From Lytechinus pictus (Eukaryota), in the NCBI RefSeq assembly GCF_037042905.1, contig NC_087245.1:31188001-31252000 (forward strand): a stretch of 64,000 nucleotides of DNA, in the 5' to 3' direction. The notes below the pieces were generated by a model that did not search any database, was not told the DNA's origin, and saw only the letters and a program-made list of their open reading frames with translations. Shown here one piece after another: positions 3,301-43,900 of the stretch; the first letter of the stretch is position 1, and every line of letters starts with the position of its first letter. The translations under genes and the position numbers were made by a program.

Positions 3301-4445
3301 AATTTCTATTAAAAAAAAAAAATGTTTACCACAGTGATTAGCTTGTGAAATTTGTACCAAATAATTATTTGGAATGAACATGTTTTTAAAATTACATTTT
3401 GATATTTCTCTCTACCACAGTATTCAACTTCCTTGTTAATTTTGGAATAGCTCTCACCTACCCCCTCCTCATCTCCCTGGCTAATATTGTAGGGATCCCA
3501 ATCAATGCAGGTAAGATCAATTCATTTTCATTTCAATTTCTAACAGTGCAATGAGTTTTCACAAGGAATAAAATACAGAACTCTGTACAGTCTTACACTT
3601 TTCATATTCAATAAATTCATTTCTATCATTTTTTCAGCCTAAAATATTAAAAACGACAATGAATAATATACTACATGCAGCACAAATAAATACATATATC
3701 AATACAATAACATTAGCATTATATTGATATACTTCGAGGGTAACAGCCAAAAAGGAGATAAATGTTATCTAGGCCAACCTGATAAATATATGAGTCAAAT
3801 GCGACTAAAATAAAGAATTATTTTGGTGTGGGCATATGTACATATGTCATATTCAGACAAAATACTGTTTAGCCGTTTATATTTTAAAAAATGAAATTGT
3901 GTGTTTCAGTAGTTATATTATTGAACTCTTTCTTCTGTTTATATCAAAAGCTAGAGTTGCTGGATTATGTTTAAAAAATAGTGTGAAGTGATTGTAAATA
4001 GCATTTAAAATTGATTGAAAATGAATCTGTGTTATGAAAATGCACACAACAGAATTAGAGCCTTAATATGAACAATACAATTGAATAGGCACTGTTTCTA
4101 TTGTCTATGTGGAGTGCCGACAGAAGCCAGCCAGTGTTGATGATGGTAGTCGATAATAATGAGGGAAAATTCAAAAATCAAAACAGGCCTGAAATGGATA
4201 TTTGATTGTGCTTTTCCTTTTTCTTTTCCTCAGTGATTGATACAGCATTCCTAGATATGGAGCTGCCTCCTCTTAAAATCGTTGGCGCCCTCCTCATCAT
4301 CGGCGGTTTCATCATCATGCTCCTCCCCGAGACGTGGCAGATAAAGGTGGCTTGCTGGAAGGAAGGCGACGCCCCCTGCAGGCGGAGAGGGGACATGCGG
4401 CGTATACCGAGCGAGGAACTTGAAGAAAGAACCGTGAGGTTGTAG
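359..4445 (+). CDS. SLC35F3/SLC35F4-like solute carrier (putative thiamine transporter family), 3' part; 5' exons lie upstream of the window
   Basis: Exons 359-584, 1015-1140, 2227-2416, 3421-3510, 4234-4445 (TAG), all AG/GT with consistent phases. Peptide includes LWMITNYMYAAALKFKSPTDVTALFVTNTAFIYVFSWIWL, ALYKVLFKRFLGDATYGQVSLFL, VFNFLVNFGIALTYPLLISLANIVGIPINAVID and GFIIMLLPETW, matching recalled SLC35F3/F4 motifs. F3 versus F4 cannot be resolved. Confidence 0.9.
1811..2021. mobile_element. MITE family A, partial copy
   Basis: Internal AAAATTATGACACTGATGGATTTCC and right TIR AACTCTTTGTAAGACGGGG only. Confidence 0.7.
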
Positions 4446-5199
4446 CTGTTTGATGGATGGCGGTGTAGAGAAGTAGTCGTCTAAACAAAACACAGAAGGT
4501 CTGATTTAACAAAGTTTACCTTCTAACTTACAAGCATTGCAACCGTTTGGTACATAGTTCGCCTTGGACTCACCTTTGATATCAGTTGTATTGTGGAGTT
4601 AATCTTTCACGTTAAGGGGCTGTTATGTGATTACAAGCAAGGGAATATATAAAATGCACACCAATGGAATATCATACATTCAAATATTATTAGCTTTTAT
4701 TATGATTTTCATGTGTTAAAATCATCAAGATAGGATGTCTCTGACACAAAAATATGAGTTTTCACAGTTTAGTTTGTAGGATGTGATTGAATTTTGCTGG
4801 AAAATAAAGATTTTTTTCTTCTCTTAATGCATTGGCAGGTATGCAACTCTACTGTGCAAATGCTTGGCAACTTGCAATATTCTGTGCACCCCAGATTTAG
4901 TATTTATGTCATAATGTTGCTAGGAATGTTACGAGACAATAGTGGAGTGTGTGTATTCTGTTCCTCAAGATGGATTTCTTCAGTATTTTACTTGAAGTCT
5001 GTGTGTCCATTTTCTGTCTCAGGTGTGAAGTGGCTATTGGCACTGGTCATTTGAATGTTCATGGGTGTATGAACTCTTTGTTGGTTTGTATGCGTGTGTA
5101 TGTTCCAGTGTGCACTGTGATGAATGTGGGTGAAGAGGAGATGTTTGATTACAGAACCTGATGAATTTAAGGATAATGAATTGGAATGTATTATTAGAA

Positions 5200-16987: not shown

Positions 16988-19900
16988 CTACGACCCATGA
17001 TTATTTTCAGAGAGTGTTGCAAGTGATTTATCGTCCCCCTGGTCATCATCCTTGTCGATGGCATCGACCAGGGCTTGCTTACTGAGCTTACGATGATGCT
17101 TCTTCTTCTTCTTATCTTTCTTCCTATCCTTGTCATCCGAATCACTGCCATCGAGGGACATTGTCCTCGGCGTGCTTGATGTCACGAGTGGGGGCAACTC
17201 GATAGCATGCCTTGACCCTCTTTGCTGGAGGAGGTAATTGGAGTTGTTCGATGAGAAGTTGTCTAGCTGTTTAGCGGGCTTGACCTCGATGGGGGTCGTG
17301 GTACCATTGGTGCTGGACTGGACTTCTGGTTGGACTTGGACTGGGGTATGGGCTCGAGCTTCTCGTCCTTCTTTGAGCTTCTTTTGTCGTCTGAATCTCT
17401 TGGTGGTGGTTGCAGTTGTGTTGGTGTCGGCTGAGGGGGTTCAAAGGAATGGATAATGAAAAGAAAAAAAAAAAGCCTGATAATTCATTTTGTCTACATT
17501 AATTAGGCCTACCATCAATTCTCTGTGTAAGGAGTTTTTTAGTGGTATCTTGCAAGAATATTATTAATGCAACTGACAGTGCAGAACTCCAGCTCATTAT
17601 ATTTCATATATCTTAAAAAATGACAATTAAAGCAAAACAAAGTCAAATTAAGATTCTTGTGAATTATTGAGAATTGTCAATCTTGATACAAAAAACAAAT
17701 TGAATTAAAGGTTAAATATGCATGAAATTAAATACTGCATGTCATACATGTAATATGAGGATATATCGGTAACAATCATATGATGCAAGTGACATGAATG
17801 TTGACATATAGTAAATGAAATGGATAAAGATGTTAGAATGTTAGGATGTACAGTAATAATGCAGTCTAACCGGTGAAACCCCCGATACCAGACCAACAAA
17901 GATATTATTAGGCCCATAACACAAAGGCGGGTTAGCAATGATCGTAGAACCATTTTTTTTTTTACAATTGATTGCATTGACTACAATGTACAATCAATTG
18001 TAGAAATCAAACGTATGATTAATTGCTAACCTTGTGTTACGGGACCCTCTTAATAAGATCATTGACATACCATTGGTCGGTTGGGAGTCGGTTTTCGAGT
18101 GTTAGGAAGTAGGGCAGGTTACATTGTTAAGAACTTGGAATAAGTGATATAAGAAATGGAAAATACATTTAAATCGTTTTTTTATGTGATTTTTTCAACA
18201 ATATTATGTCATGCACTTTCCCGTTGAAGGCATTCAACATTATCAAGAGCAGAAAACTTCACTCATGTAGGGCTGTGTCATAAAATCCAGTTATTAATGA
18301 CAATTTCCAAGCTAGCATTAAAAGCAACTGAAATGGTGGCGTATGACTGGCAAAAAGCAACTTTGTCATTGTATTCCATCTAGCATTTATAATTAATTTT
18401 AGACAAATTTTTTAATTCAGCACTGAGGGGACCATTTCATGAAAGTTGTCAGCACTGACAAGTTGTCTTTCTCCGACAGTTACCATAGTAACAGTCAGAG
18501 CCAGTGCCTTTCAGCCAATCAAAACCAAGGATTTCACTGAAATTGTCAGCACTGACAATTTAGTCAGTGCTGACAACTTTCATGAAACACCCACCTGGGC
18601 TTACATGTATTTAATGTCATAAAGAGAGATAAAACTGTCCAATATTTTTGAAAATTACTTATTAAATTATATAATTCAAATGGAAAGTGTACAGTATTTT
18701 TAGTTCTCTGATAACCAGCAATACAGCTTACACACATGTCAACAAAGATATGATATGAAATAGTAGCTGGTATTAGAGGCTGATTCCAGAAAGTAGAGAG
18801 ATGATGAAGGGAAAAGCAGCATGAAGGGACAAAAGCAGAATGTAGAAAAAAAGGATAAAGATTAAAAAGAAGGAAAGTTCTATCCTGCCAATTTTATAAA
18901 AGTAAAGCTTTGCTTCATTTACCCTTTAATCATACATGACTTCTAAATGAAAATGAGAATCTAAAATATTTTAAATAATCATCTATTGCAAAATGGTCAA
19001 TTGCCAAAATGATAATCAAAGACCTATCCCATTTCATATTTTATTATGGAAATTATAGATCTGGGGCCCATTTCATAAAGAATTACAACTGTTGTAACTT
19101 TGCCATTATTGCAACTACCATGGCAACAGGGCTCAGCAGCCAATCAACATCAAGGTTTCCATGGTAGTTGCCATAATGGCAAAGTTACAACAGTTGCAAC
19201 TATTTATGAAACTGGCCCCTGGGTGGCATTTCACAAAGAGTTGAGAGTGACATGCTTAAACCCCAATGCGCACATGTACATGTAATTTAACGCATAATAG
19301 ATTGATCACTCCGCGGTAGAGTGCATCCCAGTCTTGCGCATGATCTGGGCAATATACAGCATGCAACTGAAATTTTAGTGAAATCTTTGTGAAACCCCCC
19401 TGCATTCCTACATGTAGCATTTACAGCACTGTGCAAAACGTAGCACGGTTTATTTTCAATATCTCTAATGTGAAAATGATATTTCATAGGTCAAAAAAAG
19501 ATTGAATCATGGAGGACATATTCCCTCAAACGAAGATTTATATGGCCCTGCCAATTAAGGGAGGCTGTTGAATAGATGGAATCCCATCAAAAACTATTCC
19601 AAGAGAAAGAAAATAAGGCATGTGAATACAAGATTTTGTTTGCAGATTGGTGGGCATAAGGTCTCTGCCTGACCGCAGACAAAAAATAAGAAATATTCTA
19701 CAGAAATAGAGGGCTGTTTGAACTCTAGCTCCTTGGTACAGCAAATGAAAGACATTGGTACACATTAACAATGGTCTTGTTTTTAATAACAAAAATTATA
19801 ACATTACAAAGTATATTAGTGTAACTATGCTCAATCATGTTTGTAGACATCTCCATGTGCTTTCAAAAGATTTTGGCTAGTATTACTAATGAGCCTGCAG

Positions 19901-22900
19901 AGATTTAGCACATCTGATAATCTTATCATTCCTGCATTTCAAATAAGGTATTCCCACCAGAAATGTAAAGGTAAAAGACAGTACAATGAAATAACCCTCC
20001 TTTATTGGTTCTATTGTGATTGCTGAGTTACATTTATTGGTAGCAGAATTTCATACAATTATTACAGAAACTACATTTTGAATGCTTGCATTTTTGCTAA
20101 AAAAAGAATAGTAGAGCAAAGCTGTGTATATGAATATAGTAACGTTCCAATTAAGTCCATCTCTTTTTTTTTCTTTTGTCCAAGTCCATGTTTTAGCTAC
20201 AATAAATCAAATATGAGACACTGTTGTTTAAACATTTACCAATCTTGTGTGTAGTTTATATCCTGAAATTCAACATTGAAATGCCCGAAAAAATCTGATT
20301 GAATTCCTCATTGGAATAACCAAAAATTGTTTTATTCCTTTTTCTTTAATTTACTTGAACTGAAATATAGACTTGAGTCATTCAATATTCATATTCTCAA
20401 TTGATAATGTTAGAACTGCTGCACTGTACATGTATGTGCTATAATGGGGTTCTAACATATGTTGTAATTTCAGTGCAAAGTCAAGAAGGGGGGGGGGGGC
20501 AGTGGATAGTAGGAAGGGGAACATAGTATATCAATGTATGAGACCCCTCTGAAATTATCTATATCTTTTTTTGGAGGAAAATTATGTGAGATTCCGCCAT
20601 CAGCCATGGTTGTGATTATTGTACATGAAACAAAACTTTAACCCATCGCCTATTTTAACGGGTGATCCCCGTTCACAGCCTTTGGGAATCATCGAATTCA
20701 GTGGTAAATGGGTTAACGTCTTGCAAAAAAGGTTAGTAGTTTTTCATATAATAGTAGGTTTATAATTGGTATCCCCATGTCATATAAAATGGAGTTTCTA
20801 TGGTATTGCCGATTAAACTATATTATGTACACATGAAATAGAAAGTTGGGACATGGGCTTTGTTACTGTTATGTCTGACAGCTACATGTACATGTAGATA
20901 GATCCTTGTCATTTGATTGGTTGTTTGATGTCGATCATTCAGCCCATTTTACAATAACGTCATTATACGTGCAATTTTTGATCCATACGATTTTGTCCAT
21001 TGCACGCTTGCCGAGACAACCTGCACCGGCGCTCAACGGAAAAACACTTGTGTTTGCAGTGCACATGTTGTAAATGCGACAATCAACAGACAGCATTCAC
21101 ACTGCATGCACTTTTGCATTGAAATTTATAAGTTTCAAATGACAAGGATTTTTTTTTTCAGGTGTCAAATAAAACAAATAATGAATGTTCTGTTCATTCG
21201 TGCAATGGACAGAACACTTAATTCTGTGAAAGACGAAATGAATGATCCATTCAACGAGGCGTAGCCAAGTTGAATGGATCTTTCACCTCATGAAGTAATC
21301 TGTCCATTGCACTCAGAATCATTTATTATTTGTAAGGAGTAATAGAAAGATTGAAACAGAACAAAAATTTAATTCAGATCAGTACAACAGAAATTATTTT
21401 CTCTACAGATTGTGGGGCTGCATGGCCAAGGTTTCTTAAATTATTTTTATAGCAATTTGTTGGAGAAAGGGGGGTGACATCAGTTTATATTTGCTTTAGT
21501 GATTTTTTTTTTAATTACAGCCAAAGTTTGATGAATGCTGAATGCTCTATAATCTAAATGCAATTTATGTGTGCCAATTAGAATGCATTTATTACTACAC
21601 CAAACCACCCACATATATGATGCATATTACTGTGAATATAAGTAAGAACTGGTCACTTTGAAATAGTAATAATGATGACAATTATTTTTCTGATATCATT
21701 TATCTAACCTTTTTCATGACTCTTTAAATTTAAGAACCTCAAGGAAAAAATAATAATCACCATTACACTATTGGTGACCGGCCCTTAAATTAAATGTACA
21801 TGTACCCAACTATACTGTACTAATGATATACTGCATGTCAATAAGTGCATTTCAGAGAAGAAAATATACCCATCTGTGGCAGATTTTTATTCAAATATAA
21901 CTCGAATCGAAATGACATTTTCTTTTGAATACAATCAAACAATTGCAGACACACTTTTATTTTCAATATGACTCATGTCTGACCTATGTAACATAGATCT
22001 CTTTATTTTGGGGGTGGAAACAAATGAATTATGAATATAGATAGATTTACTTCCAGGGGTATTAAAAAATGAAATCTATAGGAGTACTTTATATTCATTA
22101 TTTCAACGATGATAGATTAATATGTTTTTTTTTAAATCTTGTCAAAAATACTTCTACCAAGCTTCAGCTATAAATGTAATACATGCTAAATATTCTGTTG
22201 TGTATTTCATGTGTAATCTGCTATGATGGAATGCAAATTCCAGTAATTTGCAATACTAATCTGCAATTGAAGAATACCTAAGATGCTTGTTAACTACTTT
22301 CATCCTGCTATGTCACTTCACCTACATGTAGGAATGTACATCTATCCTGTAGTTAGTTATATCATACTTATATCTTTGAGTACATCCTATAAGTGTTTAT
22401 CGCTTTATGCTACGCATCTTCTTGGCCTACTGAAAGTGATTAAAATTTGTACTCTAAATAAACTTTACATCACATACATGTAACAACCTTAGATTTAATA
22501 ATTTAAAATAACTTTATGCCTCAAGATATCTCTCGATCACGTCCTACTTTTTGTTTGAAAAGAAAATGTATTAAACTCAAGACGTATTTATTTTCTTGTC
22601 TGGTAATAATATTGGACAATTGTAAGCATAGCGCATGCTGCATGGAGCAGTTTCAATTGATTATGCGATATGTAAATGTCAGCATCTTTTTATTTATTTT
22701 TTCATTAGACCTTCCTCAAGTTTTCATCTTCAGAATTTACACATCTGCCTGAAGCTGGGTATATATTTTTTTTCCTTCAAAGATATGCACTGTCGACATG
22801 TAAGTAAATTTGTGTATTATCCCAAATAGATGTTATACAGTACATGTAGAATATAAAACTTTTGACTTGCATGAGGATCAACTGACCTGGTCATAAAATC

Positions 22901-25900
22901 CTATATTAAGATGTCAACGCAACATTGACACCTGTAACATCTTCACCTGACAAGGAACACAAAAACAAAATCTCACACATGAAACTGTTCTATTGAGATA
23001 AAACCATAAGCAAAGAAATTGATATAGCAAACAAACAACAACAACAAAATAAAGAAAATAACATATTGAGAAAATAACTTTACAACTGATGGAATGGTCA
23101 AAATGAAACTGCAGTTTCACCAAATATGGACCAAAATGTCATAAAATTATAAACACTACAATTTGGAAGTTAAATTCAAGAAAATAAAGAATTACATGTA
23201 CAGGTAATAATCAGAAATACCAAATTATAAAGGAAATTTACTTTCAAAACTTTTTATAACTCTTTCTTTCATTCTAATTTGAAACCAAGGCTTTCCCAGA
23301 TATACACCAAAAGGAGAGTAGAGCAAGTGACGAAAAAAAAAAAATGAAAATGAAAAATATATATTAAACATTTTAAACTATCTTTCAATACAATACCGGT
23401 ATAAATGTAATTGTTCAAGCATGTGACATTTTTTTTAAATATTACTATGGGAAGCAAAGTCTTACTCCTTGAAAAGATAAATGTGGGTTTTGGGGTTCTA
23501 TGCTGAGAAAAAAAGGCTAACAAGCTAGACAAAATGTGTAAATGAATCATGTACAGTTGTTAAAATAATGAAAATGTGACACCATATTGCTGAAAATAAT
23601 ACAGTGAAAAGGCACTGCAGAAACTTAATAGGTGAGAGAGGGGCTATGTGTACACCACAAGCCAAGTGCTGTCAGAATTCATGGTAGAGTTAGTGTATTT
23701 TAGACCATGGAGATTTGTCATGAAAAAAAAAAAATTATTATGAAGTTGTTTGACAAATTTCAACGAAACTGACAATTGAATTCATTCATTGCCAATTCAT
23801 AATTTGTTGTGTAGAAATGCCACTTTTTCATAAGATATCCCCCCCCCCCCGGGAACTGCTTTAAAAATGGTGTAGAACTTTGAAGAATAAAATTTTGAAA
23901 TGGGAACAAACATGATTTTGCTTTCAAATGATTCACCTTCACAAAAATGCTCCTCTCTAAGATAGGTGTTATTCTAATTCTCTCCAGATTACTGTTTTCT
24001 CTTTCTTTTAAACTGAAAAATATTCTACGCTGTTGATAATAAATATTAATTTGTTAGTAAGAAAATGTACACTAAAAATGTAATGAGGTCTGCTTTTCCT
24101 TTAAAATATACATAGAAAATAAATTCCAATATCTGCACCCCATGTCAGCAACATTATTGACCTTCTCGGGGAGAATAAAAGAACCTAATTTCCAAGAAGG
24201 AAATGTATGAATGAATGCATGCACTGAAGCTAAAATCTTACAAAAAGTATAAATATAATACCTAAAAAAAAACAAGAAACATCAGCATGCATCTAAATAC
24301 ATAATTTGAGAAAATAAGTGGAAAATATGTACATTCAAAAAAACATATTCTAATGCAAATTAACAGGTCCTCCATCTCATACATGGAACACTCATTTCAT
24401 GATAACTTGATTAACCTTCCACAAAAATAAACCTCCAGCAACCACCTATGGTGGGCGGAGACGCGGAGTCATAAAAATGAAACCATGTATGCATGTACAC
24501 TGCTGAACCTCTATACTCCAATCGCCAATAATAGAGCATAAATTTCCCTCATTTCTTGATGTATAATATAGCTTTAATATAATGGCAACCTTCCTTCCCT
24601 TTTTCATTAAGCCAACATAGGTCTTAGACAATAATATAAATAAATGTATTATAAAACATTGGGTGATTTCAAGTTCAGTGTTGACCTTTAGGTGTTCGGT
24701 CAATTTTTACAGGATTATAACACCAAACATAAAATGAAGATGGTCCCGAAAAGTCACTCACTGGTTGTTGAGATGTCAATATTGTGATCTGGATCAGTTT
24801 TACAAACTCTGAATAAGTTTTGGAGCAACAATCCAAATTTCAACACTAACACCAAGGCCAACACCGTACTTGAAATCACCCAATGTATTAGGATACCAAC
24901 AATTAAAACCAAATGCATGCAAAGTCTAGAGTAATTGTTGCAAGAGAGAATGATGTCATCGCACCCATTATGAAACCTCTTGAATTTTTATCTCTGTACA
25001 TGACTACATGCTACAATAATTTCATTCATCCTGACCAGGTTCAACATACAGTACAGTATTAATAACAGAAAAGGGGTACACAATCACCAAAAAAAATCAT
25101 AGAGCGAGCTGCAAACAAATTTATACTAAATCAACTTATCCATAATAGGATGTAATTACTTCATCTAAAGCTTAGTTTTTGATAGTTGGACTGAGTTCTA
25201 TGAATGATTGCATTGAGTATTGTGTATGATCAATCTTAGAAACCAATTTTTTTCCTATGGGGGTCCTGCCCCTGGGGGGGAGGGGGGCACTTCCATTGAC
25301 GAGTGGATACCATGCACGACCATGGGGTCTTAAAAAGCACCCTGAACAAGTATTTTCCATATTCTGAAAATGCACCCCTTAACAAGTATTGGCGTGTGAA
25401 ACCCTACCCTTAAAAAGTATTGGAAACAAAACGATAACCTTGGCAAGTATTCCCTGAAATGACATAAACAAGTCGGCGATATTTTAATTGTTATATGTCA
25501 CAGACGTCGGTTTTACATTTACCTACATTATTGGGTTTTGTACGGCCCCACCTCCCACACCTCATGCAGGTCGGACTCTAAGCCCGTATAGTGTTGACTG
25601 TTAAGGCAAAAAGTACATCCTTTATTTTTTAGTCTTTTTACCCTCACAAATTTGACCCTAAACACGTAGCTTCCAGCGAAATAGATACCTTTTTTCATTA
25701 TTTTAGTGTTTTTTACACCCTTATTACGTATTACCTACGTAACGTGCCCTATCTTGAAAAGAAATCCTTTTTACGTGTTTTTTTGGTCGCGCATGGTATC
25801 CACTCGTCAATGTAAGTGCCCCCCCCCCCCGGGGGTCCTGTTAAATACTGTACATATACATCACATTTCAGTATCTTTTGTGTTTATCTGACTCTTCAAG

Positions 25901-28900
25901 AGACATTTCTAGTGTTCACTCACAATTATTATCCACTCCTGAAATTGATAGTGGGTTGACCCCCCCCCCCCAAGAAAAAGAATAAATAGCATACAAATAT
26001 TGTAGCATTAAAAAAATCAAAGATGCTCATGAACGATAATACTCCCAACATACTAACTAATCAATGCACAAGCCAAAATAAATTATAGCATGCTAAAGCT
26101 TGTTTTAACGCATAACCTGAACCAAAGATTGAAAGAAATGTTAGTATGTACAGCAAATGCATTTTTTGAAACGAGTGATATTTTTTTCGTAAAAACAGGA
26201 ATACAACAAGCAAGGAAATCATAAACACGAATGAAACAGAAACAAGCAAGAGGTCCTGGCATCAAGCAAAAGGAAGAACAGAAATTATTTTTAGAAAAAC
26301 AAAAACACAAGGTGCGACGAATCTCTATACCTTTGTATGTGAGAACGGTGTCGAAGTATTGCCTATTTTATGCCTTCACCTCTGCCGATTTGTTACAAGT
26401 GAAATAAAGAAGTGAGGTGAAAGTGAAAAAAAGAAAGAAAACAATTAGTACAACCACTCGGGGAGTGAATGATAAGAATTTAAGAAAATGGGGAGGGGAT
26501 ATTAGAATATTTTAAGGTCAAAGACATATAAATGTAGGACTTTGGACTGAGAACAATGGAGCGTTATCTCTACATAATGATACAGATATGTTCCTGTGTA
26601 AAGGATTAATACAGGAGGATTATTCCCAATTGTCCCCTGAATAATCAATTGAATACAACATTCCATTTATCAATTAACTTAATTACATGGAGTCATTTGT
26701 AACATCTACTTTTAGAGCTTAGAGCTACATGTAATTGAATGAGATTGAGCCCTTGGAACAAATGAGTTTATATGAAAACAGAAAAATGAAAGAAAAAACA
26801 ATTGTTTGAGAACAATTGAATAAACAATGAGAATTAAAGTTAACATGTCAAGGTCAGTATTAATGCTATGGAGATCCTCCCACTCGCTACTCGACCAATA
26901 TTTGTGATGTCGCACATGAACAACTCTCCCCTTTGGACACTGAAAATTTCCCCAAAACATATATATTTTTGCTCATTCTGATATGATACTACAACTCTTT
27001 ATCCATTATGAAACTTTTATTACGTCCTCCAAAGAAAAGAACATCCGATCTCCTGACTTGATACAAAGTGAGAGTTGACGTAAAGTATTACAGAAGTAAA
27101 GGGGGAGTTGCACAGGTGTCACATCACACATCATATTGCCAAAAGGAGGATGTCCATAACAATAGAGATCTCTACATTCAATTGCTAATTACTTGTCCAA
27201 TACTGTTCTCACTCAAATGTTCACTGATCTTATCTTTTAATATTCTTTTATAAAAAAAAGGCAAACTTGGTCCAATTGCTTTATTTTCCTTTTATAGACA
27301 CTATTAACATTTACTTTAGAGATTAGAGCTCATTAAATTTCAAAATAAAAATGGCAGAGCATATTAACTGAAATCCAACCTCAATAATGAAAAAAAAGAT
27401 GTTTGTAATACTGGTGAAATTTTAATGAAACCAGACAAAAATGGGAAAATTATTTCATGATTTTTTTCTGAATGATATAAACAAGTATAACATAGTCAGA
27501 TTTGCTTCTTGTAAATAGGCAATGATGCAACAACAAAAAAACCACCATCTGTTGCAAACATGATTAAATTTGCAAAGCATTTGAAACAGTGGAACTTGGC
27601 TAATTGATACCTTTTAAAAGGAAAGTTCAACAATAGTCCTCTACCTTTAGTGAAAAGTGCTACATTGTACTTTTTCATAAAACTTTTTTCAATAACTAAT
27701 GCTGAAATACATATTAACAAATTGACTCTTAGCCAATCAAACATCATGATGTCAGTACAGTATACATTCTATCACTATGTTGTCATTGATACATATGTTT
27801 TACAAACTAAGGAGTGCCCCAGGGACAGCTATACTTGGGAGATTAACAAAAACGGTAACTATGCAAAAACAAACAAGTGTCATATATATTCTCACTAGTT
27901 GCAGTTCACTGGAAAGAAATGCCTATTTGAAATTTTCAGTGCAGTGGGGATCCCATCTTGCAAAGCATTCATGATTTCCACAAGGCTCTTCTTATTCTGC
28001 CTTTTAAATGAACTTTGAAGAGCAATACATAAAAGTGGCAATAAGCGTATACGTTTACATCATAAAATGATCATATACCGTCTATGTATCTAGGTGCACA
28101 AATTGAGGGCTTCACTATCATTAGGTAAAACAGAGAAAAAATGACATGGGTGCTCGGGTGACTTTCCACCTGAAATTGTAAAAAAGAGACTTGTAAATAA
28201 AAAAGAGCCTGGAAATTCCCCATTCACTACAATGTTAAAGCTTATCCATTCTTGCAGATTTATGAGGTAGGTTGTCAAAAGTAGGGCTCCCAGAAAAAAA
28301 AAGATTGCCTGCAGAAAAACCCCCAAAAATCATAGTATTGAAAACTGTATATTCTCTCGCAAGCGTAAATACACTTATCTGCATAATTATGAAATTTCAA
28401 CACATATATCTGCATAATTATGAAATTTCAGCAACATGCACAAATGCTTTCGGAATGCACATTTCTGACTAAATACACGTGTATATATTGAAGCATTCTT
28501 GAATTTTCTTTTGTAATTATACTCAGGATAATTTAATTTTGTCTATGAATATCAGACAACTAGTTTGAATGAAGATGCTAGGTTTCTGATTTAAAGCTTT
28601 TTGGTGAATGCGAATGTGTATGAAAATTACAGAGAAATTAGTAAAATCATGACCACACAGGCCCTTCAACCCACTTACAATGCTTGAATTATGGCACCTC
28701 ACAGCCAACATACATGTGTATTTAACCCCAATGCTTTCCCCACTCTCATGTAATCATCATATCATGCAGTCCTATTTTACTATTAATCTCTATTAGGACA
28801 GATACATGTAATGCAGGGCTCCACACTAACCCTTTTTTCTATTGGTCCAACCTGTTCATGTCAGATCAGTAGATTCCCAGTTTTCCCATTTTTTACTTGT

Positions 28901-31900
28901 CCAAACCTAAAATTTACTGGTCCCCAAAAGACTTGAGTTTTTTTTGCTGTCTCTTATCCCCCCCCCAAAAAAAAAAAATACATACACAACATAATTCATG
29001 AGAGCCATTTATCAATTTTGGAGAGCCATTTTCATAATTTACGAAAGACAAAATATCATTTGTATCAGTTGGATATATTTATTTTTCACTGGTCATGTCG
29101 GACCAGTATTAAAATCTGGCTATTTCTGAGAAGTTACTGGCCTAGCAACAAATTTTGCTGGTCTAGGACCATCAGACCAGTGCCAGTGTTGCGCACTGGA
29201 TAATGATCCAAGTTATGCATGAAGTTTGTATCTACTGTACATGTGAAACATACAGATAGCATTTATCAACAGAAAAGTGATGGCTCAAAGTCACTAAAAG
29301 GGTTTCAGTTTAATAGTACGATCACTAATATGATAGTCATACTTAAGTTAGCTTCTGGAAATCACTAAAATCTTATAATACCTTTTAATTTATGCTTGGT
29401 AACATGACTTTAAAAATATCAAAAAACTTTTTGATAATAAGAACATGTTAAACATTTGAAATAAAGGACGACTGATTCAGGATATTATCAAAACACCCCC
29501 ACCCTTTTAATCCATTTTGAGTCCAAGATGCATCATCTTTCAATCTGAGGGACGTGGGCTCGATTCCCAGCCATGGCGTGTTTTCCTTCAGGAAGAAAAT
29601 TTACCCACATTGTGCTGCACTCAACCCAGGTGAGGTGGATTGGTATCCGGGCCGGTAGGATGAAATTCCTTGAATGCTTTGGTGCCTACATGGCAGCACA
29701 GCTAAAGCAGCGCTTTGTATCCTCAGGCAATAAGCAGTTTATGAATCAAGCTGTCATTATTATTTTGAGTCCATATTTGGCAAAAAGCAAACATTTCACA
29801 ATAGTTGATGGGTCTGGTATGATCATGATACATTGGTATCAAGCTGTTGGCCCGGATATTCTTCATGCCAGAGGGACAAAAGAGAAGATTCTTAAACATT
29901 TACATGAGGCATTATTTCTGGAGCCCATCAGCACAAAGTTTGAATACTTCATTACAGGTTAAAAAAAATAGATACGGGGGCTTGGGGTGATTTTGCCCAC
30001 CCCCCCCAAAAAAAAAAAGAGCCCCAAATTCTTCCTATTCACTGTGATGTTTTAAAGCTTATCCAATGTTGCAGATTTAGGTGGTAGATTGAGAAGAGTT
30101 GCCCCGAAAATAAATTGGGTTATTGCCTCCAGGCTGGAATGCTTTACTAATGCTTACATTGCATCCAACAAGAATTGAATATACTAGCAAAACAATATTA
30201 ATATAATTTGCACAAACTATATTTTCAATCCTAATATGCAGTAAATTCAGTTCGTAACACACACCAATACAGCTGAAAATGGTCAGAAGTTTTGCTTTGG
30301 CATAGATGGTTATATGCAGGAGATATAACGGTTCTTTTGGCACTTTTCAACAAATCCAGAACAACATACAAACATTGAAAAATACATGCCCTTTAATGGA
30401 AAATGTAAAGCCGTGTATAAATAGATCAGATCAAGGCATACTATGTAGCTGTACAGTTTAAAACCAAGCAATTGCTTAGGTTACCTTTTTCTTCTTCCGG
30501 TTTAGCAACATTATCACTGACTTGTACATCGACTGCATGTACAAAGATATAGGAAACATTGAGATTATGAACAATGTCAATCTGGGCCCCATCTTACAAA
30601 GAGTTACGATCAATCCAATCAATCACAACTATGGACGGCCAGTAATGTCGACATCTAAAAATGCAAATTTGGTCAAAATATTGTCTAGATATGATGTACA
30701 TTCATACATTTGCCGTTCCCTTGAAGATTCAATGTGATTCTCTTTGTTTTATTTTGGGAATTCCCTGTAGAAAAAATTATGACACTGATGGCTTTCCATA
30801 GAGTTACGATTAATTGGATCAATCCTAACTCTTTGTAAGACGGGGCCCTGTTGAGATCAGAATTTCAAAGAAATTGTAATAACATTAATAATATATGGAC
30901 ATTCCAACCAATAAAATCTTAGTGATCAGAGTTCAGAACAGTGGTAGGACCGCTGAAATCGAAATTCCGATTAGATAGAGCCTCCCTGTAGGAATAAGAA
31001 CAAATTAATTTCCAAACTGTAACGATGTCATCATCGGCTGTGACTTGAAGCCAATTTGGGTTTTACTCCGACCACAGGGCTTGCGCAAAGCAAAATTATG
31101 ATATAATTCGTCCTTTAACATTATGCCGAACTTAAAATGACATAACTTTACTTCTTGGAACTTTCACATTTAATTCAAAATGTGATTTATTACAAAACTT
31201 GTGTCGCATAGTGTTCGCTGGGCTTCAAGATAATTTCTTCTTCTTTTTTTTATTTAAAGATACTCCAACAGTGTAGGGAATACTTGAGCCTAAGGGCACC
31301 AGACAATTTTACCCTCATGACAGCCAAAAGTGCTTTGGGGCAACCATCTTTTCTAAGGTTGCCCCAAAATCTATCAGAAACAATATTTAGGGATGCCAGT
31401 TGGAATCGATCAGAGGGCCTGAAAATCACCTAGAATACATTATTTTGTACACAGAAATGCTAAAACTATGGCCTGAAAAAAAATTACCAGAGCCTGAATT
31501 CAGGCTTTTGCCTGAAAACTGGCATCCCTGAATATTTAAGAACATTTAGAAAATCAGTATTCTAGTATTCTACATGTACACACAGCAGAATAACGGCTAT
31601 GCCTTTACAGCATAATTACTCATTGAACGATAAAACTAGCCCCTGAAATGAAAGATAAAGCCCCTGAAATTCAGCAATCACCCCAATGTGACTGACATAG
31701 CTCCTAAAAACAAACAAACAAATTCTTACCCTGTCATATTATTATAAAGGCCTAATTGTCTAAAAAAAAAAAAAAAAGCAGGTTTAATATGTGAAAAAAG
31801 AGGGGGCAGGGCAGGAGTAAAAAAAATACATTAGGAAAATTTACAATGAGATAAGAAAAGATAGAGACAGAGGTTGAATTTTGAGAATTTTTTTACAGAA

Positions 31901-34900
31901 AAGAAAGAGGGATATGATACAAATCAGAGAAAAAAACATAGAGAATTGTTTTGCAAAAGAAACTAATAAACAAAACAAATACAAGAGAAGAAATTAAAAG
32001 AACAGGGCACGGAGATAGAAGAGGAGAAAGGGAGAAATAGAAAGAGAAAGAGCAGAAGGAGGAGAAAGAAAAAGAAATAAAAAATGGAAAGGAAGAGGAG
32101 AAATGGCCAGATGGGTGGAGTGAGCGGGGTGGGGGGGGGGGGGGGTAAGAAAGAGGAGAAAGGGTTCAGAAAAAGGACAAAAAGAAAAAAAATGTGAAGA
32201 ATAATAAGGAAAAGGAAAAGATCTCCATGAACCATCAACAGAGGAGAGTACAACATGGATGAAACAAAGATTACATACAGTGTAGAGGTACATTGAGGTA
32301 CAATTCAACAAGATATTTGAACAAACTAGTAATTGAATACTGTATCAATTGAATGTTGAATGATACCAGCTACATTTAAAACCCCATATAACATAGCTTG
32401 TTACAGTTTGGCAGAAATGTCCCATTGGTATAGTATGCAAAGTGCAATGAATAGCACATTATAATATTGTTTACAATTCTTGAAAAGTTCAGAATCAAAT
32501 TACCTTGTTTCGCTGGAAGTTATTAATGCAAAAGAGAGAAATAGTGGATTAAAAAAGCACACAATACTAATTTCTACATTGACACAAGATAAAAGCATGG
32601 TGACTGAAATAATATCACACAGCATATCTTCGGTCCATCAGTTACAAAAGGCATTAATAGACTGAAATATTAATGATTAAAGGGTGTTTTACAAGATGGA
32701 AATTTAAAATTCAAATTAAAATTTGAATTGTAACATTTGCTCTAAGGTGGCCGTGAGGAGAGTCAAAATCAGCCGTTATAACATATTTTGTGATAGCTTC
32801 ATATCTATACTTGGTTTGAATAAAACCTGTTTTCAACTTGCCGTATTGCCACCGTTGAGCAAATGTGACTGAGGTATAAGACAATGTTTTAACCCAAAAT
32901 ACACCAGATAAGCCATAACTTGCTTGCCTGAACAGCCATGCAATTGATAACCTTGCACCAAGATTCTTGCGTTAGAAGAGTTTACGCATGTCATGTACAG
33001 GAAATATGTGTACAATGCATGATCACTCATGCATGGAAAAAAAAACATTTAAGCTTGGCATTTTGCGAGGACAAACGTCCATTAACACGGCACTTTAGTA
33101 TGGGCCTGGATACATGTATATGAACATTGCAACCCTGCAAATGCACAAAATTGGTTTGACAAGGTTAACACTAAGCCCTGGAACATAATTGATTGGTTGA
33201 TAGTGGTTAGAGCATTGGACTCATAATTGCAAGGTTGTCAGTTCAAGTCTCCGCTCTGCCATTGTCCCTACTTTGATAAAAATACCCAAGAGTAATATCT
33301 GTCATCTAATAAGGTAAACCACTATGCCTGATTAACCTAGACGGAAAGCGTTTCCTAGGAGATTGGTTATATACCAGCTTGGCGTTTGCCAGCAAAAAAA
33401 AAAGCTGTCCTGTCGAGTTCCTAAAGGAGTTACCATGAACAGAAACAAAAGCATTTTTGCAATTAATTGCATTGATTATAGTGTATGAGGCGAGACAAAA
33501 TTCATAAAGTGTGCGCAATCTCCCCCTTCCCACAAAAAAAAATAGCGAAGGGGAGGGGCAGTTTCCCTGACTAACCATAACAAGGTCTCATTTCTTCTCC
33601 AACCCATTCAAAGTTGTGTTGGCTCAATCATGGGAAGTCCTCAAACTCTGAGAGGTGAGCCGGTGTGCTCACTGAGGGAAGAATGTTCAATTAACAGTTC
33701 AATTTAAGAGTTTGGAAAACAAGAGATTAATTCCTGCCATGAGGCAAAGAGGTCTGTCATCAGAATGGGAAGCTGGCTGTTTTATTCATACTCACCATTG
33801 TTATCTTCGATGCTATATCCACCGCTCTTGACGGCTGTGAGGGTGATCCCTTCATCTCCCTTGGAGCCTAGCTGCTTTTGTCTCTGCTCTTGTATCTTCT
33901 TCTCCCCACGCGACCTGAAAAAAAGGATAGCGACATGAACTAATCTCACACGCAGTCTACCACTTAGAACAATTCATACAGAAGGATAGGTAGCGCTTCT
34001 ATGGGAATTACAATAAACAGTAAGACATTATTTGAGGAGTAATTTTCTCATTCAACACTGAAAATGCGTCAGGAACTCATTTTGTAGAATTTGACATGGA
34101 GTTCAACATGACATACATGTACATGTAGGTCAAACTTGTGCATTTGTTAGTGAAAAGCGACACCTTGTTTGGATTTTACATAAAGTACATGTAGGCAATT
34201 GTTAGTGTCTACAGGCATCTCCTGTGACAGAGAAGCACTCTCATGCAATACACAGTATATCTGAACCATGCAAGCAAAAAGAATGCTGAAGTCCTTTTAG
34301 GTAAAAAAGTATCAATTCTGAGATTTTTGCAGAAATTTCAAGTGGAAGTCCGATTCTAGTATAGGTGGCGAAATTCTATATTCCATTTTTTCGGGATATG
34401 AAAAGATTTTGTTCAACACAAAATTCAGATACAGACTTTGTACTATTAAATGCATTAAAAAAAATTCAGCAAAATCCCATCTTTGCACATATGAATGCCA
34501 CCAATTCATGTAGCATTTAAGAAATTCTTTCCAAATTCGTCCCTCGGGTGGAGAGCGGCAATGAGGATTCATGTTTCGTGAGTTGACTACTTTGACCATG
34601 AGAACAGCGATAACAATACTCACTGCATGCAGGTCAGACAGACCGCCAGGAGCACGACAAGGACAAAGAGCACGCAGACGATCGGGACCATGATCTTGTC
34701 CAGGCCGGTGTCCAGCTCAATGATGCGCTTGTCACCAATGAACACAAGTGCCTGGCCAGTGGCGTTGTTGATGTCTGCTACACTCCCCTCCACAATAGCT
34801 ACAAAGAGACAAGATTTTGATTTTTAGAGAAGAGAAAATTTGATAGTTCAGTTAAATATTTCTGTCTCCATAAACTAACATCAAATAGATTTTAACTTTA

Positions 34901-37900
34901 TATTCATATTTGAAAAAAAAAATACAGCACATGCAATGTAAACATGTATGTTGAAGGTATATGGGCATACAGTATTATGACATTGTGGGGTAGGGGTAGC
35001 AAAATATTTAAAACTAAATAAAAATATGAAAAAATGTATATTCAAATATATATTTATGTTATTTAAAATATATATAGAGTCTGCATAATCACATTTGCTC
35101 TCCTCTAAATTATGGTTTTGCTGAATGTGTAACATAGTGAAGTCGAATTTTAGGCCAGAAATGTAAAAAAAAAATTATGATAGTGGTCTTCAAAATTTAT
35201 GAAAACAAAACCATCTCAATACTGGAGATAGTAGAGCACTTACTGACTACTGTGGCTTTAGGAACGACATACTCCATGGCGGCGTCAGACGCCCTGTCGG
35301 CCTCAGGAATCCTTACATAAAAGGTCATTTTGATGTCCCCATTATAATACTCGGGAGAATTCTCAGAGAGTACAATGGTAAAGGGGCTGCAGAAAGATTG
35401 AAAGATTGTAGAAACATATGATTTAGATATATTATCATTTTATGTAACTGTTTTAAAATCCTGTCGGACTACATGTATGTACTATGTAGAGTGCTGATTA
35501 AAATATAAATTTCATATAAATTAAGTACACATTTAGCTTTATGCTTGTGGAAAACCATAAAAAATACAACAAAAATATTATTATCAAAAGTCTACAAAAA
35601 CAAATGCATTTTCATGGATTTCCTATTTGTAGCCATATTGCATGGTTAACTATGCATGGCTGATCGCTATAAATAAGCTAGCTTTTGAAAGGTATTCATT
35701 TATTCAAATTATAGAAATTCAAGCATTATTTTGAAGTACTTAAACAAAACTTTTGTGATTCCTTGATTTCCTTCATCATTTTCTTTAAGGTATAAAACTT
35801 TTGAGGCATGCAAATTTCATCATGAAGTTCAGATACTGTAAAGCCAAATGATTTTCAAAAATATTCATTATTCAGATTGTTTCTACTCACTCACTCATGA
35901 GTACTAAGTAATCACAAAATCATAAAGAGGAGACTTAAGCTTTACACTGATGGGTCATTTTATTTGTGATACACTGTAAGTTGGGGTGTAGTGGTTAAGA
36001 CTAGATAGTCTTTCAATTTGAGGGCCGTAATTTCGATTCCCAGCCATGACGTGTTTTCCTTTGATCAGCAAGAAATTTACCCACATTGTGCTGCACTCAA
36101 CCTAGTTCAGATTCTGAACGATTTTATTTAAGAGCAATCCCCCAACCGCTGCCAGGCCGAGAGATGGCGTGATCCCGAATTGTACGGGCGAGGAATCCTC
36201 GCCCGTACAATTCCTCGCCCATACAATTCGGGATCACGCCATCTCTCGGCCTGGCAGCGGTTGGGGGATTGCTTTTAAATAAAATCGTTCAGAATCTGAA
36301 CTACACTCAACCCAGGTGAAGTAAATGGGTACCGGCAGGAAATAATTCCTCAAAAAGCTGTGAGCACCGGAATCTGTAGACTAGCTTAGCCGCTGGGGTA
36401 ATATATAGGAGAGCCTTGGGCACCTAACAAGGTGGATATGTGCACTAGATACAAATCCTAATACTATTATTATCATTAATAGAGCATCAGTTATTCTTGG
36501 TTCTGTTTTTTTTTCCTGTCCAGTGAACAGTATTGCATAACTCAACTTGGTGATTACACGATAATCAAATACTTGCTAATTACTTTGAGGCCGTTTTTTC
36601 TACCTATCTAATGAACAATACTACAATTCATTTCTATTATTAATGAAAAATACAATTCTCATACAGTACAATGCTGTCATTTCAACCTCCAATGACAATT
36701 TTTGTTTAAATGGTATACTAACATGTATCCATAACAATTCTACAGATTATCTTCAAAACAAACAGAGAAACCATGGTTAACGATATTCATACGTAGTGTA
36801 CTACTTACTAGTAGCTTGCAATACATATTTACTCAATGATCAATGTGCATACATGTAGGAAAATAACTTAATTGTTAGACTAAGACTAGATTGCTACTTA
36901 TATGTATAAATATGCATGCACCTTTAGACCTACAATGAACGCAACAAGCGTTCAAAATAAACCTCAAAATTGCCATTGAAAATGTTCCAAATTTGATAAA
37001 GACAATCAAAACATAAAATGGAAAAAGAACAATAAACTAAAAATGAAAATGAATGCTCAATGAATGAGTACCATACATGTATGAGTATGATTATTGATGA
37101 ACATCAAGCATACACGAGCCTTGTAAGGGGCGTCTGTGTATATCAGCACTCTCAATGATTAATCTATCAATAATTAAACACACCCGCACAGGCTGCACCC
37201 AACAGAGTTCTTTCAGCAAAGCATAGTGATACAATGAATAGAGCCATTTAGACTTGAGTGCTTTACTGTATCACAATACAAAATTTCATTAATCATATTC
37301 AGTGATCAGTATTGTCAATGTTTTAGTTGTATTACATCTTCATGAACAAGTTCAATGAAGAGACAAATTTTATGTATGTCCTCCGTACAGTTCATGTAAA
37401 AAAAATTGAATATGAGCACAAGATATATGAGCAACTTTATAGGAGTATCATTTTTTTATTACGTACATGTATGTAGCTCCATATATCCCTGTACCACGGA
37501 GCTCCATGCCTATTCACTGCTAATTGTAATGATGTATTTTATGTATCATACAATTTTATTCATTTCATGCATTATAATGCATAAATAGAATAAAGTACAT
37601 ATGCTGACTTTTAGAAGTAGCCTTTTGGCCTCGGGGGGGGGGGGGGCACTTCCATTGACGAGTGGATACCAGCCACGACCATGGGTTTCGAAAAGCACCC
37701 TAAACAAGTATTTTCCATATTCTGAAAATGCACCCCTTAACAAGAAGTATTGGCATGTGAAACCCTACCCTTAAAAAGTATTGGAAGCAAAGTGGTACCC
37801 TTGACAAGTATTTCCTGAATTGACCCCCTAAAGCGATATTTAAATTGTTACATCACATACATGATCACGGACTTCGGCTTTAACTTTAATACATTGGGTT

Positions 37901-40900: not shown

Positions 40901-43900
40901 TAACCAAACCAACACAGCAGAAAAATACCAGTCTTGGAAACATAAACAGAAATACAATTATCAAATCAAATTGCACTCTCTTATTTTCTTGCAATAATTG
41001 AGGCACATTTCCATAATATTTAAGTCACATTTTTATATCTAAAATTTAAGTCACTTTCAATTTTCTTTTAGTTAACAGATACAATTTCCATGAGAATCTT
41101 AACTTAAAGATCAACATATGGGCTTGTAACAAATCAATCTTTATGCACATTTAAAGTCACACAAAGCATAATCAATAACAGATTAAAGAGAAAAAGAAAA
41201 CAGGACAGGGGAATTAATTAAAAATTGCAAGAAGAATGCCTTTATTAATTCTATTTTCTTCTGAAAACAGTCAGCAAGATATTGGTAGAATACAAATGAA
41301 TTGTAGCTGATTACACACTAAATTTTTACAAATATATTTGACAGATGAAATCTCATCTATTCTCTTTCCTAATTTCCGGGATTAAATCAATTTTTCATGT
41401 TATTCTTCATCAAGACAGTACATCAGGGCCCCGTCTTACAAAGAGTTGCGATTGATCCAATCAATCACAACTATGGACGGCCAGCAACGTCAACATCTAT
41501 TATTCATATTTGTTCAAAATATTTTCTAACTATGATGCATATCTCAGGCATTCATTGTTTTCTTGAAAATTCACTGTGCTTCTCTTTGTTTACAAAGGAC
41601 ATTGTGCAAATATCCTGGAGAAAAAATTATGACACTGATGGATTTCCATAGAGTTACGATTTATCGGATCAATCGTAACTCTTTGTAAGACAGTACATCT
41701 GAACAAGGCTTTAGACTACAGAACTTACTCATTGTATGCCGAGATCTGACAGGAGGCAAAGTTACTTGAATCCATACAATAGTTGTTCACACTTGTAGTT
41801 ACTGACGATGTGAATCCAACAGTCATGGCCTGGTCCCACTAAAGATTATAAACAAAGAATGATTCATATTAAAATGTATGCAAAGTGGGGGAAGGGAGGG
41901 ATCAAGGTAAATGCTGTGGTTGTGACTCTGGTTGTCCCCATTCATAACAGCAGATTTATTACTTCTGACTTCATATTGAATAATAATTTCAAGTTCCCTC
42001 TGAAATAAAAATCATTTGACAATTATCATCAAGCTACATATAAGAAACAATAGCAACATGTTTGTGTATGCCTTGGCTAACCAGTCATCAAGTATGTACT
42101 CAGATCACACTGCCATTTAAAGAATCATCTACAAGTACGATGATACACCAACCTGGTGGACTGTTCTTTAACGGATGATGATGATGATGATGATGGAACA
42201 TGTGAACCCTAATAAAATCATGAACAACATAATATACAAAGCTTTTTTTTTACAAAGCTAATTTTATCATAATGCCAAAGCTTTTAATTTTGAATTTTAC
42301 TTCTTTCTTATCTAACTGAATCAAGTCACTTGTGTGCCTTCCATTTAAAACTTGGGTATCTCTTCAAAGATCAAATCATCATCCCCTTTTCTACTATTTT
42401 CATTCATATGTATTTCTTAAAACTGAATCCATAACTGCCAACCCTGACAACCAAGAAATAAGTACAGATTTCTAAGAAATTTCCACAAATAAAATAATTT
42501 CCTCTCCAAGACTACATAAACATTTTCAAAAAATAGGAACATGCAGGTCCATTCCTTTTCCAAAAATAAGAATATTCATTTTTAAAGGTGAAGTTTTAAT
42601 AAGTTAGTCTTCATAAAAATCAGAAAAATCACATAAAAATATTAGTGAAGGTCTGATAATAATTATAATAATAATATTACATCACTTTATAGCGCATAAT
42701 AAACAGAAAGTTTCTCTATGCGCTTTACAATAGAGGAAACAAAAATACATATCATAATAATTATAAACAAAGAAATAGACCTATAAATTACAGCAAATTA
42801 TTCAAACTTACAATTGTTATCAATAAAATTATTTCCAATACTAAACCTAGTTATGAGTTACGGAAAAGATGAGTTTCAAGTAAGGACTTGAAAGTTGAAT
42901 AAGTGGATGCCTGTCTGATATTTAGGGGTAATTTATTCCAAAGGGTTGGTCCAGCTACAGCAAATGATCTACCACCATAAAAGCATGTGTGGGTTTTGGA
43001 AATTTGAAGAAATGCTTGTTTGCTTGATCAAAGGTTACGGGAAGGGTTAGAATCATTTAGTAAATTGGACAAGTATGATGGAGATAAGCCATGCTGAGCT
43101 TAAAAACTTAACAAAGAATCTAAAATGTGATGCGTTTTTCTACAGAAAGCCAATGTAATAATGAAAATCAATCCAAGAATCAGAAAGTTATGATTATTTT
43201 TCAAGCTTTTGATGTGTCATATTTTATGCAAGCATCTCTCCCAAATCATGTATTTCTTAATGGAACATGACAGACTCAATAAGTCATCTTGGCATTAGAT
43301 TACACTCAACTTTGCACTCTGAGCCAGAACAAAAGAAATGACAGTGAATCAATTCTTCTGCCTCGGCCACTCAATTGTTCTGGTCCTGAGTGTAGAGTCA
43401 AGTGTAATTACACTCAAAGATTGCAGACGGCCATTGTTCACCATTACTTACATCATCAATATCATAGATTTCATCAAATCTGACTTCAAGGGAATCACTT
43501 CCGATTTCATCTGATAAAAAGAAAAAAAAAATCTTTTTGAATTCAAACATAAAATCATAATTGAATACAAATGAGTGTCAAATGTTAGTGTTGTACATTT
43601 AGAAGATGAAATAATAAAGTTCTAAAAATAAAAAAACTTGGATCCATATCTGACTATATGCACCATTTCAATCATTTCGGGGGTTTCCTAACACACAAGC
43701 ATTAATTTTACTATCTCTCTAACCTCTGCAAACATAAACGATCAATACAAAAAAACAACTTAGTATCAAGTACTGTACCAAAATTTACTGAGGATCGGGC
43801 AAACCATTTTCCTCTCTAAAATATGCAAAGTCTGTCTGTCAGGGGTATGTAATTCAAACACTGGTTCACCCTATATCATACAGTGTCTGTGTGCCCTAAA

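What the first reader, a model, noticed from the sequence alone, without database searches (positions are those of the whole stretch)
18071..26381. Array of stop-containing cassette exons that could swap the membrane protein's cytoplasmic tail
Seen: the 13-kb last intron (minus strand) holds three exon-like units with acceptor and donor, each a multiple of 3 nt and each with an in-frame TAA in phase 1. 26381-26331 (51 nt; TACTAAT branch point plus about 50-nt pyrimidine tract) gives ...EEEK-EVKA*. 22946-22887 (60 nt; TTCCTTGTCAG / CAG|GTCAGT) gives -GEDVTGVNVALTS*. 18133-18071 (63 nt; weaker AAG acceptor, ATG|GTATGT) gives -VLNNVTCPTS*. The stops lie 37, 19 and 31 nt before the donors. Established: stops less than about 50 nt upstream of the last junction escape EJC-dependent NMD, and CD34 uses a stop-containing cassette to truncate its tail (analogy only). 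Inference: a switch between one long, 147-codon terminal exon and several short tails.
Basis: partly seen in the sequence, partly recalled or inferred. Interest (0 to 1): 0.7.

Follow-up and report, generated by a model that had tools for sequence, protein, structure and literature searches.

The report
Sea-urchin stop exons swap protein tails
In a sea-urchin membrane-protein gene, two small optional exons that carry their own stop codon are spliced into the RNA and are predicted to replace the protein's long inner tail with one of two short ones, a known kind of switch that likely changes where the protein sits in the cell; the third exon proposed has no support.

Summary
Two of the three units are real; the third is unsupported. 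The gene is Lytechinus pictus LOC129260935, an uncharacterised single-pass protein with a SEA-like ectodomain. Exon 26381-26331 is spliced on both sides in RNA and exon 22946-22887 is spliced to the last exon (9 reads, 3 of 3 runs). Both tails are RefSeq isoforms in L. pictus, L. variegatus and S. purpuratus (EVKA identical; second tail 11 of 13), and their use differs between samples. Unit 18133-18071 is in 0 of 22 urchin proteins, shows no listed junction and scores at chance; a better candidate at 18779/18766-18725 was missed. Sea-star and brittle-star relatives also have one long and two short tails. The long tail carries three motifs shared across the family (VxP, LPPL, basic run) that 18 of 18 short forms lack. 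Stop-containing penultimate exons are a described class (PMC7392665; integrin alpha-6 exon 25); CD34 is a poor analogy. NMD escape and tail function are inferred, not tested. No earlier scan note covered this. New member of a known kind; interest 0.36.

The parts
44685..44778 (-). first coding exon (start codon, signal peptide)
   Evidence: exon model translates to RefSeq P0008, P0003, P0013 with 0 mismatches
43452..43510 (-). coding exon, start of SEA-like ectodomain
41729..41838 (-). coding exon, ectodomain (invariant W, C, C)
35244..35386 (-). coding exon, ectodomain
   Evidence: RNA contig piece and joint
34624..34798 (-). coding exon with the transmembrane helix
   Evidence: RNA joints; model
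33796..33914 (-). last exon shared by all isoforms; its phase-1 donor is the branch point of the switch
   Evidence: joint 33796>26381; isoform tails diverge here
32504..32512 (-). optional 9-nt in-frame micro-exon
   Evidence: 3-residue insert in L. variegatus and S. purpuratus isoforms; skipped in the X1 contig; not in the listed L. pictus isoforms
30485..30532 (-). optional 48-nt in-frame exon
   Evidence: in P0003 and P0013, absent from P0008 and P0001; skipped in the RNA joint
26331..26381 (-). stop cassette 1, tail EVKA, stop 37 nt before the donor
   Evidence: both joints in RNA; RefSeq in three species and one Logan protein
22887..22946 (-). stop cassette 2, tail GEDVTGVNVALTS, stop 19 nt before the donor
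   Evidence: joint to 17430 in 9 reads over 3 runs; RefSeq in three species
   Evidence: best pyrimidine tract of 619 AG sites; the start of RefSeq P0007 maps only here, joined to 17430; zero depth in X9-X11
   Evidence: 0 of 22 urchin proteins; no listed joint; chance-level score; tract rank 254 of 619
16988..17430 (-). terminal exon, coding part: long tail when the cassettes are skipped, 3' UTR when one is included
   Evidence: 146 open codons after the junction codon; 110 of 150 columns identical to S. purpuratus; RNA depth

Best explanation
Two stop-containing exons in this sea-urchin gene are spliced between the last shared exon and the terminal exon, and they are predicted to end the protein with a 4- or 13-residue tail in place of the 147-residue tail, which likely changes the protein's sorting or partners. 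Shown: both exons join the terminal exon in RNA; their tails are kept in three urchin species; use differs between samples (first exon nearly exclusive in X1, second exon about half in X11). Inferred: the messages escape nonsense-mediated decay because the stop is under 50 nt from the last junction; skipping both gives the long tail; the switch removes three family-wide motifs (VxP, LPPL, basic run) and supplies a new C-terminus, of which EVKA fits a class II PDZ-binding pattern (definition recalled). The third unit is probably a pseudo-exon.
For: Joints. Exon models equal RefSeq P0008, P0003, P0013 with 0 mismatches. 8 of 22 urchin proteins end in EVKA and 5 of 22 in ALTS/ALTT. X1 depth estimates: cassette-1 bin 314, cassette-2 bin 4, terminal exon 289; X11: cassette 2 about 11, terminal-exon start about 19 (from bins). 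Long tail 110 of 150 identical between L. pictus and S. purpuratus. Motifs in 26 long tails against shuffles: [KRQ]VxP 18 (mean 2.7, max 9), LPP[LIM] 20 (mean 0.1), basic run 23 (mean 0.6); 0 of 18 short forms carry any. Acanthaster and Amphiura isoforms branch at the same place after the shared EGI/DDV-x-[LM]T motif.
Against: Read counts are small (2 to 9 per joint; about 6 in 100 of each run read). The skipping joint that gives the long form was not among the joints shown for this species, and L. pictus RefSeq has no long isoform (it splits the tail off as LOC135155332). No protein-level or NMD-inhibition data. X1 (contigs) and X11 (reads) are different individuals and data types, so 'regulated' is not separated from genotype. 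LPPL and the basic run were picked after seeing the sequences; shuffling destroys any clustering, so the basic-run control is weak; family members are related. VxP is short and its role is disputed (listings PMC5409180, PMC5305262). The second tail does not fit a PDZ pattern.
Confidence: 0.8

Rival explanations
1. The exons are poison exons: inclusion marks the message for decay or yields an unstable stub, so the switch sets the amount of long protein and the short tails have no role of their own.
For: No NMD test was possible. Whether urchins follow the junction-dependent 50-nt rule is not known to me; inclusion lengthens the 3' UTR by the 443-nt old coding part.
Against: The cassette-1 form accounts for about all terminal-exon depth in X1 (287.4 of about 289); tail residues are conserved in three species, which a poison exon does not need.
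Confidence: 0.08
2. The short forms are the default protein in L. pictus and the long tail is a rare, tissue-restricted form reached by skipping, as in the 'penultimate' class of splicing-accessible coding 3' UTRs. This is the same mechanism seen from the other side.
For: No long isoform in either L. pictus RefSeq release listed and no skipping joint shown; short forms dominate X1.
Against: Long isoforms are annotated in L. variegatus, S. purpuratus and Diadema, and long motif-bearing tails occur in hemichordate and mollusc relatives, so the long tail is likely ancestral, not a recruited UTR. The joint table hid 269 rows.
Confidence: 0.3
3. All three of the first reader's units are used, the third in a tissue not sampled here.
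For: 84-nt AG-free zone and a TGCATG 82 nt upstream (10 such words in the intron). Sense reads cover 18083 (5, 3, 2 in X9, X10, X11). Eleven joints with low support were hidden.
Against: Those reads all carry a non-window letter, do not follow the gene's expression (X11 is highest but has 2 sense and 9 antisense), and X1 contigs there (depth 245) leave no room on the terminal exon, which points to a repeat. 0 of 22 urchin proteins carry the tail.
Confidence: 0.12
4. All units are chance pseudo-exons in AT-rich DNA.
For: Shuffled introns give many units of similar splice score.
Against: Junction reads and conserved tails for two of them.
Confidence: 0.01

Closest known systems
Stop-containing penultimate exons / splicing-accessible coding 3' UTRs (Preussner et al. 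2020, PMC7392665; 12 passages seen)
   Same: Stop codon in an optional penultimate exon within 50 nt of the last junction; skipping opens a longer frame in the last exon. [quoted passage not shown]
   Different: Here two such exons lie in tandem with two optional in-frame exons ahead of them, in an invertebrate, and the long tail looks ancestral and motif-bearing rather than a recruited UTR.
Integrin alpha-6 A/B (ITGA6 exon 25; PMC5930856, 6 passages) and CD46 CYT-1/CYT-2 (exon 13; abstract start PMC5064401; stop inside exon 13 is recalled)
   Same: An optional exon swaps the cytoplasmic tail of a single-pass protein; for ITGA6 it holds the stop and changes the PDZ-binding end.
   Different: One cassette and two tails there; unrelated proteins; the ITGA6 exon (130 nt) also shifts frame.
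PCDH15 CD1/CD2/CD3 and its membrane-adjacent domain MAD12 (abstract of 10.1101/2022.02.25.482032; listing PMC4119359)
   Same: Best fold match of the ectodomain (6c10_A Z 10.6, rmsd 2.4, 101 aligned, 13% identity); three alternative tails that decide transport. 8 of 26 long relatives end in TE[LI], like fly Cad99C (PMC2171266).
   Different: No cadherin repeats; no sequence-level match; the urchin proteins lack the TEL end. A shared SEA-like fold shows neither descent nor function.
Collectrin / ACE2 neck domain
   Same: Signal peptide, one ferredoxin-like domain, one helix, short tail; ESM Atlas 0.96; top Foldseek hit ACE2, E 6.7e-4.
   Different: No PF16959 hit; the ectodomain alone gives no collectrin hit.
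CD34
   Same: Long and truncated tails from one gene.
   Different: Per PMC6356495 the mouse switch is an internal splice site in exon 8, not a cassette; this protein has no mucin region.

Membership tests
Stop-containing penultimate exon (PMC7392665) | optional exon with the stop, spliced directly to the last exon | tested here: met
   joints 26331>17430 and 22887>17430; no joint shown for 18071
Stop-containing penultimate exon (PMC7392665) | stop no more than 50 nt before the last junction | tested here: met
   37 and 19 nt; a further intron in the distal 3' UTR beyond 16430 was not examined
Stop-containing penultimate exon (PMC7392665) | skipping opens a longer frame in the last exon | tested here: met
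   146 open codons; long isoforms in L. variegatus and S. purpuratus
Stop-containing penultimate exon (PMC7392665) | skipped message seen in this species | tested here: inconclusive
   not among 15 of 284 joints shown
Stop-containing penultimate exon (PMC7392665) | escape from NMD | not testable with these tools
   only abundance in X1 and X11
DUF8077 (PF26284) | domain hit | tested here: inconclusive
   precomputed hit on the S. purpuratus orthologue and P0017, none on P0001/P0002; UniRef names; not returned by the local Pfam scans
PCDH15/Cad99C-type cadherins | extracellular cadherin repeats | tested here: not met
   ectodomain is one domain of about 130 residues; no cadherin-repeat Pfam hit
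PCDH15/Cad99C-type cadherins | SEA-like membrane-adjacent domain | tested here: met
   Z 10.6, rmsd 2.4, 101 aligned
PCDH15/Cad99C-type cadherins | class I PDZ-binding C-terminus | tested here: not met
   absent from the urchin forms; present in 8 of 26 long relatives
Collectrin | collectrin domain PF16959 | tested here: inconclusive
   no HMM hit, but ESM 0.96 and ACE2 fold match
CD34 sialomucins | N-terminal mucin region (recalled as defining) | tested here: not met
   folded domain starts right after the signal peptide
CD34 sialomucins | PF06365 domain | tested here: not met
   no hit at E up to 1; ESM 0.84 is a lead only

The most novel reading that the evidence does not exclude
An echinoderm-wide tail switch, whose layout (one long tail, two short tails, optional in-frame exons) has been kept from sea urchins to sea stars and brittle stars while the short-tail sequences turned over, toggles a cadherin-less MAD/SEA membrane protein between a cilium-targeted long form (VxP, LPPL, basic run) and short forms held elsewhere by their C-terminal residues.
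Probability: 0.15. Interest if true: 0.62.

Novelty: new member of a known kind. Interest (0 to 1): 0.36.

Why it matters
The mechanism is known and the isoforms already stand in automatic RefSeq annotation, so a splicing specialist would not be surprised by the switch itself. What is new is that it is conserved, sample-dependent and sits in an unstudied invertebrate protein family (0 papers for six identifiers). It gives a compact test case in an easily manipulated embryo for two open points: whether echinoderms obey the junction-distance rule of nonsense-mediated decay, and whether VxP-type tails sort membrane proteins to cilia outside vertebrates. It also shows a current annotation error: the long tail is filed as a separate gene.

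Tried and rejected
No whole genome is held, so no cross-species DNA comparison of the exons was possible; conservation rests on proteins. The run search listed no holder on record as RNA; I used spliced contigs and raw RNA reads instead. Repeats swamped the loose-end tables in both lays. Splice-score statistics could not separate real from false units. Alternative last exon for 22946-22887 rejected: direct joint to 17430 and zero depth downstream. Stop read-through into the long tail considered because the exons are multiples of 3: cassette 1 is open after its stop, but cassette 2 has a second stop and two of two being 3n has a 1 in 9 chance; not pursued. Sequence search of PDB with the family profile gave only low-complexity or helix hits. 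No longer or fused relatives of 512-2000 aa were found (weak evidence). The tree does not resolve orthology between echinoderm classes (support 65/65). Paper search for LPPL/LPPI with cilia gave 0. The Esrp sea-urchin paper (PMC5703972, 12 passages) does not mention the gene in what I saw; its supplementary event tables were not searched and may list these exons. Scan look-ups by place and by words found nothing on this feature. No complex prediction was run.
Full report
The gene. The transmembrane exon matches RefSeq proteins of Lytechinus pictus LOC129260935 (98%) and L. variegatus (91%). A six-exon shared model (44778-44685, 43510-43452, 41838-41729, 35386-35244, 34798-34624, 33914-33796, minus strand) plus the optional exons translates to the current L. 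pictus isoforms P0008, P0003 and P0013 with 0 mismatches. The protein has a signal peptide, one ectodomain, one membrane helix and a tail. The predicted model is confident (mean pLDDT 86); its ectodomain is SEA-like, closest to PCDH15 MAD12 (Z 10.6, rmsd 2.4, 101 aligned) and, by Foldseek, to the ACE2 neck (E 6.7e-4). Relatives occur in echinoderms, hemichordates and molluscs (32 hits at E up to 0.001, one of them, P0044, an unrelated CUB-type protein that I left out; names for 8 of 10 looked up). No paper names the family or these loci (0 hits for six identifiers).

The observation. All three units are as described, with stops 37, 19 and 31 nt before the donors. Sequence features alone prove little: shuffled introns give 20.4, 0.0 and 2.4 units of equal score on average, and the scorer ranks a real exon last.

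Cassette 1 (26381-26331) is real. The main X1 contig (1,239 nt, depth 287.4) runs 35386-35244, 34798-34622, 33912-33796, a 51-nt piece, then 17430-17038; both joints are listed, and X11 has 2 and 3 raw reads for them, X9 and X10 none. X1 is not on record as RNA, but the contig is spliced. The joint skips 32512-32504 and 30532-30485, so these are optional too.

Cassette 2 (22946-22887) is real. It joins 17430 in 6, 2 and 1 reads of X11, X9 and X10 on the gene's strand, with no depth at 22304-22711, so it is a cassette and not a last exon. Its upstream joints rest on RefSeq (P0001, P0013, P0005, P0011, P0020). Rough depths from the bins: X1 314 (cassette 1), 4 (cassette 2), 289 (terminal exon); X11 about 11 (cassette 2) against about 19. 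So the choice differs between samples, though individuals and data types differ too and counts are small.

Conservation. Of 22 urchin proteins retrieved, 8 end in EVKA, 5 in ALTS or ALTT, 8 in the long tail (one of them the split-off P0007) and 1 in an intron read-through tail. EVKA is identical in L. pictus, L. variegatus and S. purpuratus; the second tail is 11 of 13 identical; the long tail 110 of 150. Acanthaster has one long form, two short tails and an optional 8-residue insert; Amphiura has one long form and two short tails; all branch just after the same motif, and each branch begins with a residue that a G-first codon can give, as a phase-1 junction requires (inference). The short tails of the three classes do not align, orthology between classes is unresolved (65/65), and proteins cannot tell cassette from last exon there.

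The third unit (18133-18071) is unsupported. Its tail is in 0 of 22 proteins; no joint is among 15 of 26 shown (the weakest shown had 4 reads, so 3 or 4 reads could be hidden) or 15 of 284. Reads at 18083 all carry a non-window letter, come from both strands in X11 and do not follow the gene's expression, which points to a repeat. It has zero depth in X9-X11 and the RefSeq model may be partly predicted, so it stays a candidate.

How it likely works. Including either cassette ends translation 4 or 13 residues after the shared part and turns the long coding exon into 3' UTR; skipping both gives the 147-residue tail. Stops under 50 nt from the last junction are expected to escape decay (PMC7392665, passages), and the abundance of the short forms fits, but this was not tested. 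The long tail carries motifs found across the family: [KRQ]VxP in 18 of 26 long tails (shuffles 2.7, max 9; pattern taken from the abstract of PMC3172256), LPP[LIM] in 20 of 26 and a basic run in 23 of 26 (chosen after inspection). None of 18 short forms has any of them. In the non-echinoderm relatives VxP mostly lies close to the membrane, while in the urchin and brittle-star proteins it lies beyond the branch point. The simplest reading is a sorting or partner switch. A ciliary role is a guess from VxP, whose importance is disputed (listings). EVKA fits a class II PDZ pattern (recalled); ALTS does not.

Against this reading: the skipping joint was not seen in this species; no protein evidence; 4 of 11 listed runs laid and about 6 in 100 of each raw run read.

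Comparison. The mechanism is the 'penultimate' class of Preussner et al. and matches integrin alpha-6 exon 25 (PMC5930856). PCDH15, the best fold match, also has three tails that decide its transport (abstract), but this protein has no cadherin repeats and is not filed there. CD34 differs in mechanism (PMC6356495) and lacks matching domains. Verdict: a real, conserved two-cassette tail switch in an unstudied protein; new member of a known kind; interest 0.36.

Noticed in passing
window 18779/18766-18725 (-): Candidate exon with the strongest pyrimidine tract of the intron, two acceptors 13 nt apart (stop tail or in-frame insert) and two donors (18732, 18725); the ATG that starts RefSeq P0007 follows the stop by one base.
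   Followed up: partly
window about 22190-22240: Island of reads on the gene's strand only (14 in X11, 3 in X9, 0 in X10), about 42 letters per read, all with two non-window letters and no listed joint. Another locus or an unplaced small exon; unexplained.
   Followed up: partly
window 17430-16988 (-): Current L. pictus RefSeq files the long tail as a separate gene, LOC135155332 (P0007), while L. variegatus and S. purpuratus file it as the long isoform: likely an annotation split.
   Followed up: yes
window 32512-32504 (-): 9-nt micro-exon with TGC 18 nt upstream of the acceptor, the signature of SRRM3/4-type neural micro-exons (recalled); kept in three urchin species by sequence or isoform.
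   Followed up: partly
window 30484-30440 (-): Read-through of the 30485 donor gives the tail of the older RefSeq isoform P0015; absent from the newer release's listed isoforms.
   Followed up: partly
L. variegatus proteins P0002/P0004 and kin: Two nearly identical loci (LOC121418787, LOC121420377) on a contig of the same length: recent duplication or uncollapsed haplotype.
   Followed up: no
proteins P0027-P0053: 8 of 26 long family members end in TEL or TEI, like fly Cad99C, and the ectodomain resembles cadherin membrane-adjacent domains: possibly a cadherin-derived family without repeats.
   Followed up: partly
window 17930-18046, 18430-18600, 19060-19240, 20880-21330, 24400-25950, 28500-31050: Many short inverted-repeat elements in the intron attract reads of both strands from other loci.
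   Followed up: no
window 291-4480 (+), 48380-54052 (+), 61045-62908 (-): Exon-like ORFs of neighbouring genes: by look a multi-pass solute-carrier-like protein, an enoyl-CoA-hydratase-like protein and a coiled-coil protein (names recalled, not searched).
   Followed up: no
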